The notes below the pieces were generated by a model. The model saw only the letters and a list, made by a program, of their open reading frames with translations, had not been told where the DNA came from and searched no databases. Below, in pieces: positions 104 to 60,586 of a DNA stretch of 64,000 bases. Each line of letters starts with the position of its first letter. Position 1 is the stretch's first letter. Location: the IMG/VR virus record IMGVR_UViG_3300031760_000008, positions 12,337-76,336 of that record; one strand, written 5' to 3'. The DNA is from a virus (taxonomy: Duplodnaviria; Heunggongvirae; Uroviricota; Caudoviricetes). The translations under genes were made by a program, and so were the position numbers.

Positions 104-118
104 CTAATAATATTTTAC
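104..118 (-). promoter_or_regulatory. conserved late-promoter-like motif copy (plus-strand ctaataatattttac)
   Basis: Member of 17+ copy family; 34 nt upstream of ATG at 74. Confidence 0.4.
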
Positions 119-177
119 TATAAAAAATAAAACTATATTTCACAATATAGTTTTATTTTCATATACATTTTTATAGA

Positions 178-855
178 TTACCATACTTGATTATGATATT
201 GATTATGGGTTCCTTTATTAATAGCTGTAATATGATTAATATTTTCAACTTCAGCAAATCCAACTTTATCTTTATTACTAACTTCGTATCTTGTACTATC
301 ATAAGGAAATTTAGTATGATATTCATATGAATGAACTTGAATTCCATCTATTGTTTGAATAATTTCAGCAGGCACAAGTTCAAGACCACATCCCGCAGGT
401 CTGACTACTTCTATAAGATCTCTAACTTTAGATAAATTAGCTGGGAAATAAATATATATTTTAACTTTATTTCCATCTCTTTGATATTCAATATTAAACA
501 TTGACAAAGCTTCAATTTTATCTATTTCACCTAAAGCATTAACAGATAAAGCTGTAGCAAGTCTCATACCTAGTTTAGATCCTCTATTCCTAATCATATC
601 AGGATAATGTTTAATTATAATTCTATTAGAATCATATGATTCTGAATAATCATATTTATATCCTACATATGAAGCAAGTAAAGGTAATAAATGATTTGGA
701 CAAGAATCAAAATCAATTAAACTTATCCAATAATCAGCATTTGTTTTAAAATGATTTATTAATAAATCAAATAATTTACAATATGCCTGTACATCTCTAC
801 TTTGTCTCATAATATAAGGTATAAATGTTTTACTTTCTAATACATTAGTTGACAT
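178..855 (-). CDS. hypothetical late protein (225 aa), follows C1 peptidase gene
   Basis: Long ORF, tightly packed with upstream gene (11 nt gap); no motif I can name. Confidence 0.45.
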   Translation of the reverse strand: MSTNVLESKTFIPYIMRQSRDVQAYCKLFDLLINHFKTNADYWISLIDFDSCPNHLLPLLASYVGYKYDYSESYDSNRIIIKHYPDMIRNRGSKLGMRLATALSVNALGEIDKIEALSMFNIEYQRDGNKVKIYIYFPANLSKVRDLIEVVRPAGCGLELVPAEIIQTIDGIQVHSYEYHTKFPYDSTRYEVSNKDKVGFAEVENINHITAINKGTHNQYHNQVW

Positions 856-866
856 TTATTTCTACC

Positions 867-1634
867 TCATTTCTTAAATCTACGTAATAACATATTTATA
901 AATCTTAATATTTTTTGCCATATAGTTTGATAAGTATCTATTGTATTTTCTTTTGTTGAAATAGCCCAAGCTGAATCAATAGGATAATCATAAGGAAGTA
1001 TAGCTTGACCTTTATCTCCCCAATATTTACCCCAGCTATTTTGAATTATGTAACCATAGGGATTATAACCACAAATTATAATCATATGATATCCTTTTAA
1101 TTCACCTTCAGGTTCTTTAATAATATAATTTAAATCATAATCTAAATCATTATAAACTGGAATTGAAATAGGTACTGGAGTATTTTGAAGAAGACACTTT
1201 TTTATTTCTTCTTCAGTATAAATTCTAGCATATGATTCTATTTTATATTTTTCAGCAATTGGTTTTAATTTATCTATATTCTCATCAACAATGTCTTTAA
1301 TTTCTTTCATTTCTTTATTGTGATCAAAATTATCTCTAGGAACATCTCCTATCTTTTGTAAAGTTTTTAATGCTTCTCTAGGATACATTCCTTGTTCTTG
1401 ATTATATGTTATAGGTCTATATCCATATATAAATCCTGTAGACATTTTTTCATTATTAAATTTTTCTAAAAATGTAGCTAAAGAGTGAGCTACACAAGAA
1501 TTAACAATACCTTGATCTTTAACATCAGATATTGCTAATTCATATTTCTCAGGAAATTTTGGAGCAGAAACTATTTTTGATTTAAACTTATAATCCCTTT
1601 TATCTGGTATCTCTTTCTTACTTCCGTAATACAT
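867..1634 (-). CDS. papain-like (C1A) cysteine peptidase, candidate lytic peptidase
   Basis: Catalytic signatures with papain spacing: 'QGIVNSCVAHS' (Gln19/Cys25 box), 'GYHMIIICGY' (His159 box), 'NSWGKYWGDKG' (Asn175-Ser-Trp box). Confidence 0.75.
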   Translation of the reverse strand: MYYGSKKEIPDKRDYKFKSKIVSAPKFPEKYELAISDVKDQGIVNSCVAHSLATFLEKFNNEKMSTGFIYGYRPITYNQEQGMYPREALKTLQKIGDVPRDNFDHNKEMKEIKDIVDENIDKLKPIAEKYKIESYARIYTEEEIKKCLLQNTPVPISIPVYNDLDYDLNYIIKEPEGELKGYHMIIICGYNPYGYIIQNSWGKYWGDKGQAILPYDYPIDSAWAISTKENTIDTYQTIWQKILRFINMLLRRFKK

Positions 1635-58882: not shown

Positions 58883-58897
58883 TGATTCACCTCCATT

Positions 58898-60541
58898 TTA
58901 TATAGCACTAGGCCATATTGAATTTGCTAAAGCTTCACAAGCATCATATTCTTCTTGAGATATAGCACTATCTCCAACATAAGTTCCTAATATACCAAAT
59001 AGGGTTGTTCCATTTGCTATCATATTAGAAGTTAAGCTTGCAGCATTTGCAATTTCACTGTCTGATGCTGTCATTATTATTCTTCCATTTTTAATTACAT
59101 AACCAGTAGTATCAAATAAACCAGAATAATAACTTAAACCATTGTTATTATAAATTATATCATCTTTAGTTAATATAGTATTTCCATCATATACAGGTAT
59201 TGTTCCAGTTAATTTTGTATTTCGCGCATATGCAGTTTTTCCAGATATTATATCTGATGCATATGCTGTAGCATCTTCTGTTATAGCACTACCTGAATGT
59301 GTTCCTTCTATACCTAATATAGTTTCTCCTTCAGCTATTTTATCTGCAGTTAATCCAATAGCAGTTGCTGTAGCTGTCTTGCTAACATTATATTTATAAT
59401 TAACGTTAGATGATATTAAGGTAGGATTCACAGAACTTTTTGCTATAGTAACATAATTACTTGTTTCTGTTATAGAATCCGCACTATATCCAGTTCCTTC
59501 GGTTGTTACTCTTGTTGTATTAGCTGGTATTGGTTCTACAGATCCTGCTATTCCTAATACAGTTACACCTTGTTTTATTTTGTCAGCAGTTAATCCAATT
59601 GCTGAAGCAGTATCAGCTAGTGATGTTTTAATACTAATATCTGTATTAGTGTCGGCATACATCTTATTATTAAAACGAGTTTTAACAAGTAATCCATCAT
59701 TTTGTAAAGTAGTAGAAGTACTTGATTGAATAGTTCCTAAATATGGAGTTAAAGTACCTGTTATTTTCACATCATTAACATAAGCTGTTTTACCTTCTAT
59801 TAAATCTACAGCTGTAGCATTTGCATCTGATGTATCTAATTCACGCAAAGTACCTGTTAATCCAAATAATGTTACTCCTTCTTTTATATCAGCCGCATTT
59901 AAATGTAAAGCACTTATTACAATATTATTATCTAATAATAATCTACTATTTTGTTTCATTAAAATAGGATATCCCATTGTATTTTCTACAAGAGTATTAT
60001 CATTATTGACATATATACTTGTTACTTCTCTATTATTATAAGGTTCTATTGTTTGTAAAGTACCAGTTACTTTAGATCCATTAATATATGCTGTCTTACC
60101 AGTTTCTATATTTATAGCTGCAGCTGTAGCATCTTGAGTATCTATAACTCCTTTTAATATTCCTAAATAAGTAAATGTTATTGTATATTTTGTATTTATT
60201 AATGAATTTTCTTCTACAGATATAACACTATTCATAGTTAGATTATTTGTATTATTAACATCATTATAATTACCAAGGATAATATCTCCTTGTATTAAAT
60301 CCATTGTTATATATGCTTTATCAATAGCTAAAGTAGATGTTTGACCTATCATAGCATCTGATAAAGAATGTTGAAATTTAGGTATATAATAAGCATGACC
60401 ACCAGTAGAAATATTATATATTTTATCTACATAAGATCTAAAAGTGTCTACTGTTGTAATTTCTTGTCCTTTATCTCTTATAGCTTCTTTAATTAATCTT
60501 TTAGTTTCTTCAAGATAATCTAAGTCTTCTTTAAGTGACAT
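58898..60541 (-). CDS. tail fibre protein, anchor-type N-terminus plus GxTILGITGTY repeats
   Basis: 'MSLKEDLDYLEETKRLIKEAIRDKGQEI..SYVDKIYNIST'; repeats 'IKEGVTLFGLTGTLRELDTSDANATAVDLIEGKTAYVNDVKITGTL', 'IKQGVTVLGIAGS', 'IAEGETILGIEGTHSG', 'IANGTTLFGILGTYVGD'. Confidence 0.6.
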   Translation of the reverse strand: MSLKEDLDYLEETKRLIKEAIRDKGQEITTVDTFRSYVDKIYNISTGGHAYYIPKFQHSLSDAMIGQTSTLAIDKAYITMDLIQGDIILGNYNDVNNTNNLTMNSVISVEENSLINTKYTITFTYLGILKGVIDTQDATAAAINIETGKTAYINGSKVTGTLQTIEPYNNREVTSIYVNNDNTLVENTMGYPILMKQNSRLLLDNNIVISALHLNAADIKEGVTLFGLTGTLRELDTSDANATAVDLIEGKTAYVNDVKITGTLTPYLGTIQSSTSTTLQNDGLLVKTRFNNKMYADTNTDISIKTSLADTASAIGLTADKIKQGVTVLGIAGSVEPIPANTTRVTTEGTGYSADSITETSNYVTIAKSSVNPTLISSNVNYKYNVSKTATATAIGLTADKIAEGETILGIEGTHSGSAITEDATAYASDIISGKTAYARNTKLTGTIPVYDGNTILTKDDIIYNNNGLSYYSGLFDTTGYVIKNGRIIMTASDSEIANAASLTSNMIANGTTLFGILGTYVGDSAISQEEYDACEALANSIWPSAI

Positions 60542-60575
60542 CCTCTATTACTCCTTTCTTTGAGTATTTTTCTAT

Positions 60576-60586
60576 TAATATTTTAC
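60576..60586 (-). promoter_or_regulatory. conserved promoter-like motif copy
   Basis: 35 nt upstream of fibre ATG 60541; extended identity with 56274 and 52518 copies. Confidence 0.45.

What the first reader, a model, noticed from the sequence alone, without database searches (positions are those of the whole stretch)
104..60586. Seventeen or more copies of a conserved ~22-nt late-promoter-like motif
The plus-strand motif c-TAATAATATTTTAC-A-t-aaaaata recurs at 108, 2701, 5283, 12631, 16038, 17681, 19855, 25801, 26261, 28661, 43152, 44763, 49533, 51456, 52518, 56274 and 60576. Its sense orientation on the minus strand is TATTTTTATGTAAAATATTATTAG. Variant copies lie at 23397 and 43197. Every copy lies 16-185 nt upstream of a start codon, usually 25-40 nt, and many directly follow a terminator hairpin. 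There is no conserved -35 element. This resembles T4 late promoters (TATAAATA) or an extended -10 promoter read by a phage-modified RNA polymerase or a phage sigma factor. It partitions the late region into transcription units, with terL, each fibre cassette and the capsid gene having their own copy.
Basis: seen in the sequence. Interest (0 to 1): 0.55.

Follow-up and report, generated by a model that had tools for sequence, protein, structure and literature searches.

The report
Conserved late-gene promoter motif of phage
A 15-base sequence (GTAAAATATTAWTAG) repeated about 21 times in front of the virus-particle genes of an uncultured ~200-kb rumen/gut phage is almost certainly that phage family's own late-gene promoter: a well-defined but ordinary kind of signal, whose reader protein is still unidentified.

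Summary
In gene (minus-strand) orientation the motif is GTAAAATA(T/a)TA(A/T)T(A/g)(G/a)A. All 21 good copies are on the coding strand and intergenic, although 92% of the window is coding. None occurs on the other strand. Most lie 19-34 nt before a start codon, and 8 directly follow a hairpin plus T-run. There is no -35 element.

The phage is a new T4-core myovirus (gp23 capsid, gp21 protease, sheath, gp25, T4-type portal). Relatives with 70-80% capsid identity keep the motif while flanking DNA diverges. Density is about 0.26/kb across 74 kb of virion genes and about 0.02/kb across 46 kb of replication genes. The replication genes instead carry host-type TGnTATAAT promoters.

Best reading: a -35-less late promoter with a -10-like TAAAAT and a start at the conserved A/G of TAG. 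It is probably read by host core polymerase with a phage specificity factor. I rate it a new member of a known kind, of modest interest.

The parts
60572..60586 (-). Motif copy GTAAAATATTAATAG. It lies 30 nt before the ATG of the 547-aa fibre-like gene (58898-60541) and directly after a hairpin plus T-run.
56270..56284 (-). Motif copy GTAAAATATTATTAG. It lies 30 nt before the 534-aa fibre-like gene (54635-56239) and directly after a hairpin plus T-run.
52514..52528 (-). Motif copy, 34 nt before the 98-aa ORF (52183-52479), after a hairpin plus T-run.
51452..51466 (-). Motif copy with a degenerate 3' end (GTAAAATATTATAGA), upstream of the 183-aa ORF (50805-51356), directly after the terminator at 51505-51475.
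49529..49543 (-). Motif copy (GTAAAATATTATAAA), 21 nt before the 102-aa ORF (49199-49507).
44759..44773 (-). Motif copy (GTAAAATATTATTGA), 60 nt before the gp21-type prohead protease gene (43232-44698). The terminator at 44835-44808 lies upstream.
43197..43211 (-). Upstream member of the tandem pair before the major capsid gene. It is the variant GTAAAATAATATTAG.
43148..43162 (-). Downstream member of the tandem pair, 168 nt before the ATG (42979) of the gp23-type major capsid gene (41591-42979). The pair is conserved in relatives L001, L003, L011 and L013.
41453..41467 (-).
36272..36286 (-).
28657..28671 (-). Motif copy (GTAAAATATTAATAC), 30 nt before the UDP-glucose-dehydrogenase-like gene (27883-28626).
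26257..26271 (-). Motif copy (GTAAAATATTAACAG), 154 nt before the 94-aa ORF (25818-26102). A T-run terminator lies about 25 nt upstream.
25798..25812 (-). Motif copy, 181 nt before the 75-aa ORF (25389-25616).
23396..23410 (-). Weak variant (TTAAAATATTATTAA), 23 nt before the 381-aa gene (22227-23372) that precedes the tail sheath gene (20621-22204).
19851..19865 (-). Motif copy about 27 nt before the first piece of the split large-terminase gene (17708-19837), after a hairpin plus T-run.
17677..17691 (-). Motif copy, 26 nt before the T4-type baseplate protein gene (16844-17650).
16034..16048 (-). Motif copy, 27 nt before the 1100-aa gene (12704-16006).
12617..12631 (-). Motif copy, 113 nt before the 638-aa dockerin/EF-hand repeat gene (10587-12503).
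5279..5293 (-). Internal copy in the 40-nt gap between the gp25-like gene (5296-5697) and the 728-aa gene (3069-5255), 23 nt before the ATG. There is no terminator here.
2697..2711 (-). Motif copy (GTAAAATATTATTGA), about 20 nt before the 76-79-aa ORF (2446-2685), after a hairpin plus T-run.
104..118 (-). Motif copy, 29 nt before an ORF that runs off the left end of the window (52 aa in L135), after a hairpin plus T-run.

Best explanation
The motif is the class-specific (late) promoter of this phage family.

Shown:
- It is a single 15-16-nt block, GTAAAATAWTAWTRRA, with no -35 element.
- It always has the orientation of the downstream gene and is always intergenic.
- It typically lies 20-34 nt before the start codon.
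- It often sits directly after an intrinsic terminator, so that each copy opens a new transcription unit.
- It is conserved across diverged relatives.
- It is concentrated in the virion-gene region and almost absent from the replication region, which carries host-type TGnTATAAT promoters.

Inferred:
- TAAAAT (bases 2-7) acts as the -10-like element. It keeps the critical T-12, A-11 and T-7.
- Transcription starts 6-7 nt downstream, at the conserved A/G of 'TAG'. In some family members the Shine-Dalgarno sequence begins at or within the last bases of the motif, so the start cannot lie further downstream.
- Host core RNA polymerase is directed to the motif after the early phase by a phage-encoded specificity factor. 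This would be a functional analogue of T4 gp55 or phiEco32 gp36. Its gene lies in the unexamined ~70-90 kb or is too diverged to recognise.
For: Statistics and strand. All 21 of 21 copies are intergenic and in sense orientation, with none on the antisense strand at up to 1 mismatch in 130 kb.

Spacing: the median distance is 30 nt over 69 family instances, with a minimum of 9-12 nt. In those short cases the Shine-Dalgarno sequence starts between -2 and +4 relative to the motif end.

Terminator adjacency.

No -35 element, and conservation extending to T13, R14, R15 and A16.

Family conservation, including the tandem pair before the capsid gene. The motif is also present in a divergent family member with 30-60% protein identity.

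Class distribution: 19 copies in 74 kb of virion genes against 1 copy in 46 kb of replication genes. Separate host-like TGTTATAAT promoters sit in front of non-structural genes.

The geometry matches that of the T4 late promoter, an element at -13 to -6 (PMC1524935). Single-element promoters for a phage sigma are known, for example phiEco32 gp36 (PMC12276001).

No known RNA family overlaps the motif.
Against: No transcript 5' ends are available.

No gp55 homologue was found. The gp55 HMM gave nothing below E 0.1 in the family, while the positive control L014 scored 5e-65. No LIS04-type sigma was found. No sigma or polymerase family appeared in the Pfam or PHROG scans of about 190 ORFs. Some pooled scans showed only the top 25 families. 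Concatenated unknown ORFs gave no PDB sequence match.

Strong conservation of the bases between the -10-like hexamer and the predicted start is unusual for sigma-dependent promoters. It fits a phage RNA polymerase promoter better.

A few copies precede tRNA genes or metabolic genes, so 'late' may really mean 'middle plus late'.
Confidence: 0.6

Rival explanations
1. The motif is a -35-less promoter read by the host primary-sigma holoenzyme itself through the TAAAAT hexamer. Late timing would come from a phage activator or appropriator, or from replication-coupled changes, and not from a phage sigma. This resembles the shift to -35-independent promoters in Thermus phage P23-45 (recalled from memory, not checked). 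The conserved flanks would be the binding site of an accessory protein, for example the phage SpoVG homologue.
For: TAAAAT keeps the three key -10 positions. No phage sigma or polymerase was found in about 130 kb. The phage clearly uses host-type promoters elsewhere. A conserved SpoVG-family nucleic-acid-binding protein is encoded in the middle region.
Against: The TG is not at the extended -10 position, because the G abuts the hexamer. Fifteen to sixteen conserved positions, including the first G and the discriminator, are far more than a housekeeping sigma needs. The motif is asymmetric, unlike typical dimeric activator sites. No link between SpoVG and the motif was tested.
Confidence: 0.2
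2. The motif is the promoter of a phage-encoded RNA polymerase, either single-subunit T7-like or YonO-like, or a non-canonical multisubunit enzyme. The enzyme would recognise one contiguous block that includes the start site.
For: The motif is a single contiguous block conserved up to the predicted +1/+2 and ending in TA|GA, as T7-class promoters do (the T7 promoter anatomy is from memory). The virion-polymerase promoters of phiKZ-type phages such as AR9 are likewise extended AT-rich blocks, AAATATATATTAT-N6-G (PMC5312081).
Against: No PF00940-type or other polymerase family was found in any scan. No DxDGD catalytic motif occurs in any ORF of 60 aa or more across about 424 kb of family loci. 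The capsid, portal and baseplate genes are T4-like and not phiKZ-like. About 70-90 kb of the genome is unexamined.
Confidence: 0.13
3. The motif is not a promoter. It would be an RNA-level signal (a processing site or translational operator in 5' leaders) or a DNA site for another process such as packaging, recombination or homing.
For: It lies close to ribosome-binding sites. Nothing here measures transcription.
Against: Eight copies sit immediately after a hairpin plus T-run that should end upstream transcripts before the motif is transcribed. The distance to the start codon ranges from 9 to 263 nt, so the motif is not tied to the ribosome-binding site. The motif has no secondary-structure content and no Rfam match. 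The strict gene-orientation bias and the one-copy-per-unit pattern are not expected for packaging or recombination sites.
Confidence: 0.07

Closest known systems
T4-type late promoters (TATAAATA at -13 to -6, read by gp55 with gp33 and the gp45 clamp; PMC1524935)
   Same: Both are a single A/T-rich -10-region element without a -35. Both lie in front of virion genes of a phage with T4-type capsid, prohead protease, portal, sheath and baseplate genes. Many copies per genome often follow terminators. The predicted start lies 6-7 nt after the element. A clamp loader is present nearby.
   Different: The sequence is TAAAATAT, which matches TATAAATA at only 4 of 8 positions. The conserved block is twice as long (15-16 nt) and extends to the start site. 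No gp55 homologue was found in about 130 kb.
phiEco32 middle/late promoters read by the phage sigma gp36 (AATGTA centred at -11.5; PMC12276001)
   Same: Both are a phage-specific, single-element promoter class that replaces host-type early promoters.
   Different: The phage is an unrelated podovirus with a different consensus, and no gp36-like sigma is detectable here.
T7-class single-subunit polymerase promoters and phiKZ/AR9 virion-polymerase promoters (PMC5312081)
   Same: Both are one contiguous, highly conserved, AT-rich block with a conserved purine start.
   Different: No polymerase gene or DxDGD motif was found. In AR9 and phiKZ such blocks are early promoters, whereas here they mark virion genes.
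Extended -10 (TGnTATAAT) promoters of Firmicutes
   Same: Both are -35-independent and have an A/T-rich hexamer. This class is also present in the same genome, as TGTTATAAT.
   Different: In the late motif the G directly abuts the hexamer, and eight further downstream positions are conserved.
Promoters of the nearest cultured relatives (Thornevirus: Listeria phage LIS04, Bacillus phage SP-15)
   Same: These are large Firmicutes myoviruses with about 30% identical capsid, terminase, portal and neck proteins. They have their own repeated promoter-like motif and a phage sigma-70-family gene.
   Different: The LIS04 motif is bipartite (GCTCKATT-N13-ACGTYTATA) and unrelated in sequence. Its sigma has no detectable homologue in the loci examined here.

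Membership tests
T4-type late promoter (gp55/gp33/gp45) | Single -10-region element, no -35 element | tested here: met
   The information profile of 64 unique instances shows no signal upstream of the block.
T4-type late promoter (gp55/gp33/gp45) | Consensus TATAAATA | tested here: not met
   The block reads G-TAAAATAT-TAWTAG, and the best register matches 4 of 8 positions.
T4-type late promoter (gp55/gp33/gp45) | Precedes late (virion) genes and is rare before early or replication genes | tested here: met
   There are 19 copies in 74 kb of virion genes against 1 copy in 46 kb of replication genes.
T4-type late promoter (gp55/gp33/gp45) | Phage encodes a gp55 sigma homologue | tested here: inconclusive
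   The gp55 HMM found nothing in about 130 kb of this phage or in relatives' loci, while the control L014 scored 5e-65.
T4-type late promoter (gp55/gp33/gp45) | Transcription start about 6 nt downstream; dependence on the sliding clamp | not testable with these tools
   There is only an indirect constraint. In some family members the Shine-Dalgarno sequence begins at the motif's 3' end.
Extended -10 sigma-70/sigma-A promoter | TG at -15/-14, one base upstream of the hexamer | tested here: not met
   The G is invariant but directly abuts TAAAAT, and the T before it occurs in only 48% of instances.
Extended -10 sigma-70/sigma-A promoter | -10 hexamer with T-12, A-11 and T-7 | tested here: met
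   TAAAAT is invariant in the copies selected. This is partly by ascertainment.
Phage RNA polymerase promoter (T7-like, YonO-like or phiKZ-like) | Phage encodes its own RNA polymerase | tested here: inconclusive
   No polymerase family was found in the Pfam or PHROG scans, and no DxDGD motif occurs in the family ORFs. The genome is incompletely sampled.
Phage RNA polymerase promoter (T7-like, YonO-like or phiKZ-like) | Contiguous conserved block that spans the start site | tested here: inconclusive
   The block is contiguous and conserved to the predicted +1/+2, but the start site is inferred and not mapped.

The most novel reading that the evidence does not exclude
The motif is read by a transcription factor or polymerase of a kind not yet recognisable by sequence. 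This would be a late-transcription system in a T4-core phage lineage that has replaced gp55/gp33. No gp55, sigma-70-family or RNA polymerase gene is detectable in about 130 kb, and the conserved block is twice as long as a gp55 site and reaches the start site.
Probability: 0.2. Interest if true: 0.6.

Novelty: new member of a known kind. Interest (0 to 1): 0.35.

Why it matters
The motif gives a ready-made transcription map for an uncultured family of ~200-kb phages from rumen and gut Clostridia-like hosts. It defines late units, terminator-promoter junctions and two promoter classes. It also provides a sequence tag for recognising fragments of this family in metagenomes. Finally, it is a defined DNA bait for finding the unidentified late-transcription factor. 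Mechanistically it is what one expects of a large lytic phage, so its value lies mainly in annotation and as an entry point, not as a surprise.

Tried and rejected
1. Search for the reader protein.
- I ran Pfam and PHROG scans of about 190 ORFs from the window and from 66 kb of flanking genome.
- I built a gp55 HMM from about 40 homologues.
- I built a LIS04/SP-15 sigma profile.
- I applied DxDGD and sigma-region-2 regular expressions.
- I ran phmmer of concatenated ORFs against PDB sequences.
- I ran tblastn of concatenated unknown ORFs against annotated phages.
- All were negative for sigma or polymerase. The weak gp55-HMM hits (198-aa ORF at 34971-35567; L146 164-aa ORF) were inspected and dismissed.

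2. Genome walking. This covered contig positions 81.5-148.8 kb plus 10 kb to the right of the window. Positions 1-81 kb were not reached.

3. Paralogue gamble. I tried to reach other genome regions through homing-endonuclease paralogues. This returned only the same locus.

4. Same motif in an unrelated phage? The 29-kb contig 3300031994_000412 first looked like a different phage using the same motif, which would have pointed to a host sigma. It proved to be a fragment of a divergent family member, with homologues in L005.

5. Nearest cultured relative. LIS04 was checked for the motif. It has none and uses a different bipartite motif.

6. Literature. A string search for the motif gave only chance matches.

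7. Collection-wide scan. A scan for the 15-mer saturated with chance hits in AT-rich contigs.
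Full report
**Observation**

The plus-strand string TAATAATATTTTAC occurs 18 times at up to 1 mismatch, all on the + strand. Shuffles give 0.68 on average, with a maximum of 5. The 10-mer core occurs 18 times exactly, against 1.23 expected.

Nearly all ORFs of the window are on the minus strand. The motif is therefore best read in that orientation: GTAAAATATTAWTAG.

Listing all matches with up to 3 mismatches, together with their context, gives 21 convincing copies. 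All 21 are in gene orientation and intergenic. A simple ORF map makes 91.7% of the window coding. GTAAAATA is the most intergenic-enriched 8-mer on the sense strand, with 20 intergenic and 3 coding occurrences.

**Anatomy**

The distance from the 3' end of the motif to a start codon preceded by a GGAGG-type ribosome-binding site is 19-34 nt for most copies. Longer leaders occur before these genes (ATG at 42979):
- the protease gene (60 nt);
- the dockerin protein gene (113 nt);
- two small ORFs (154 and 181 nt);
- the capsid gene (168 and 217 nt from a tandem pair).

Eight copies (60586, 56284, 52528, 51466, 41467, 19865, 2711, 118) lie 0-5 nt after a hairpin of -10 to -17 kcal/mol that ends in a T-run. 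Two more have a terminator 25-40 nt upstream.

An information profile over 64 unique instances from the window and its relatives shows no conserved position from -50 to -1, so there is no -35 element. Conservation continues beyond the 11-nt core: T13 is 86%, R14 is 98%, R15 is 92% and A16 is 70%. The motif is thus one block of 15-16 nt. It overlaps no Rfam family.

**What the phage is**

The window encodes the following:
- a gp23-type major capsid protein (41591-42979);
- an S77/gp21 prohead protease (43232-44698);
- a tail sheath (20621-22204) and a tube;
- gp25 (5296-5697);
- a T4-type baseplate protein (16844-17650);
- a gp13-like neck protein (23407-24159);
- a cell-wall hydrolase tail protein (5712-7709);
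- three fibre-like paralogues;
- a large terminase (17708-19837) that is split over four ORFs;
- seven tRNA genes and two HNH homing endonucleases.

There is no nucleotide match in 50,697 phage records. The nearest isolates are Thornevirus-like Firmicutes myoviruses (Listeria LIS04, Bacillus SP-15, Streptococcus GXN1, Bacillus HSE3) at about 30% capsid identity.

IMG/VR holds relatives on contigs of 137-209 kb, with 70-96% capsid identity. A near-identical contig of 178,755 bp overlaps window 1-10892 at 99%, and an ENA contig of 105,809 bp also carries the window.

One 3-kb fragment is binned with a rumen 'uncultured Clostridiales' genome. This is a weak host hint, but it is consistent with the dockerin domains, the GGAGG ribosome-binding sites and the 27% G+C.

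**Conservation and distribution**

Every relative carries the 11-nt core several times per 20 kb, always on the gene strand.

In the alignment of the region upstream of the capsid gene, both members of the tandem pair are conserved in L001, L003, L011 and L013, while the surrounding intergenic DNA diverges.

A 29-kb contig (L045/L149) first looked like a different phage. It has syntenic homologues at 30-60% identity in relative L005, so it is a divergent family member. It carries the motif in the same intergenic, post-terminator positions.

I walked along the near-identical contig. Sense-downstream of the window come, in order:
- the T4-type portal;
- thymidine kinase and a 5'-3' exonuclease;
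- a UvrD helicase, SbcCD and dUTPase;
- GroES, a SpoVG homologue and GroEL;
- DNA polymerase, NAD ligase and primase/helicase;
- QueC, QueD, FolE and TGT;
- a RecA-like protein and a clamp loader.

That 56-kb stretch holds only three copies, all within 12 kb of the portal. There are none in the last 40 kb. At up to 1 mismatch it holds one copy in 46 kb, against 19 in the 74 kb of virion genes. That 74 kb includes 10 kb to the right of the window.

The non-structural genes instead carry TGTTATAAT or TGTTATAAA 12-20 nt before the ribosome-binding site. This is a textbook extended -10 promoter of the host primary sigma. Two promoter classes with complementary distributions are the classical signature of temporal control.

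**Mechanism**

Bases 2-7 of the motif, TAAAAT, keep the three most critical -10 positions. If this hexamer occupies -12 to -7, +1 falls on the conserved A/G of 'TAG'. The same holds if TAAAATAT occupies -13 to -6, as TATAAATA does in T4 (PMC1524935).

An independent constraint agrees with this. In 8 of 69 family instances the start codon is only 9-12 nt from the motif end, and the Shine-Dalgarno sequence begins between -2 and +4 relative to the motif end. A start further downstream would therefore lose the ribosome-binding site.

I conclude that the motif is a -35-less late promoter with its start at its own 3' end. The most likely reader is host core polymerase carrying a phage specificity factor. 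Two precedents support this: T4, whose structural module this phage shares, and single-element phage-sigma promoters such as phiEco32 gp36 (PMC12276001).

**What is not shown**

I could not find the factor. All of the following were negative:
- Pfam and PHROG scans of about 190 ORFs. Several pooled scans displayed only the 25 best families.
- A gp55 HMM, whose positive control scored 5e-65.
- A profile of the LIS04/SP-15 sigma.
- Catalytic-motif and sigma-region-2 regular expressions.
- phmmer of 33 unknown ORFs (4,943 aa) against all PDB sequences.

The strong conservation between the hexamer and the start is more typical of phage-polymerase promoters, such as T7-class promoters or the AT-rich AR9/phiKZ virion-polymerase promoters (PMC5312081). 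That rival therefore stays open. So does host holoenzyme plus an accessory protein. The conserved phage SpoVG homologue is a candidate DNA-binding protein but is untested. Phage-borne spoVG genes are already known from gut phages (PMC10294663).

A non-promoter role is unlikely for three reasons. Terminators precede many copies, the distance to the start codon varies from 9 to 263 nt, and the motif is asymmetric and strictly oriented.

**Verdict**

The motif is a new consensus of a familiar kind of element, a phage late promoter, in a previously undescribed family of large rumen and gut phages. Its interest is modest. The open point worth pursuing is the identity of the protein that reads it.

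Noticed in passing
window 17708-19837 (-): The large terminase gene is broken into four overlapping ORFs in three frames (19484-19837, 18562-19512, 18318-18617, 17708-18361). The same split gene calls appear in independent ENA and Logan assemblies, so it is not a sequencing error of this window. It could reflect frameshifting, an intron or decay.
   Followed up: partly
window 53643, 39769, 35898, 34932, 33811 (first base, minus strand) and about 12 sites in L135, L138 and L144: There is a second promoter class, TGTTATAAT or TGTTATAAA (a canonical extended -10), 12-20 nt before the ribosome-binding sites of non-structural genes. Its distribution is complementary to that of the late motif.
   Followed up: yes
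window 30323-36073 (-): Seven tRNA genes (Gln, Cys, Trp, Tyr, Ser, Ser, Pro) are interleaved with two NUMOD4/HNH homing endonucleases (33259-33795, 30402-30923). These sit inside a block of small non-structural genes that interrupts the virion-gene region.
   Followed up: partly
window 42980-43147 (-): The capsid gene has a 168-nt leader that is conserved in relatives. It contains a direct repeat (TTAAAAGATATTTAATG ... TTTAAAGATATTAGAAAC), which may be a regulatory element of its own.
   Followed up: no
window 43197-43211, 41453-41467, 36272-36286: The three copies with A instead of T at motif position 9 (GTAAAATAATA...) cluster between the capsid gene and the tRNA block. They may form a separate sub-class (22% of family instances).
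   Followed up: no
window 62-84 and 17638-17660 (-): An identical 23-nt ribosome-binding site and gene start (TTGGAGGTAGAAAATTATGAGTGA) follows two different motif copies.
   Followed up: no
window 10587-12503 (-): A 638-aa protein carries four dockerin type I repeats and EF-hand-like calcium sites within the baseplate/tail gene cluster. This hints at a cellulosome-bearing Clostridia host or at calcium-dependent adhesion.
   Followed up: no
window 16151-16606 (+): This is the only sizeable ORF on the opposite strand. It is 151 aa here and is called as 148 aa in public assemblies. It lies in the gap upstream of the 1100-aa gene.
   Followed up: no
L155:17160-17798, L158:11476-13575 and neighbours (outside the window): A full set of 7-deazaguanine genes (QueC, QueD, FolE, a QueE-like gene, a queuine tRNA-ribosyltransferase/DpdA-like gene and a YhhQ transporter) suggests that the phage DNA carries modified guanine.
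   Followed up: no
L144:14807-15133 (outside the window): A phage SpoVG homologue (PDB 2i9x, E 9e-8) lies between GroES and GroEL. It is conserved at 50-62% identity in relatives and is a possible nucleic-acid-binding regulator.
   Followed up: partly
L133 (Listeria phage LIS04) 648-35751: The nearest cultured relative has its own repeated bipartite promoter-like motif, GCTCKATT-N13-ACGTYTATA. It occurs 12 times in the first 36 kb, and the phage also has a sigma-70-family gene (LIS04_17). This appears to be undescribed.
   Followed up: partly
window 28679-29053 and neighbours: A cREC receiver domain occurs together with HAD_SAK_2, nucleotidyltransferase and metallophosphatase hits. This suggests an RNA-repair-type module in the non-structural block.
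   Followed up: no
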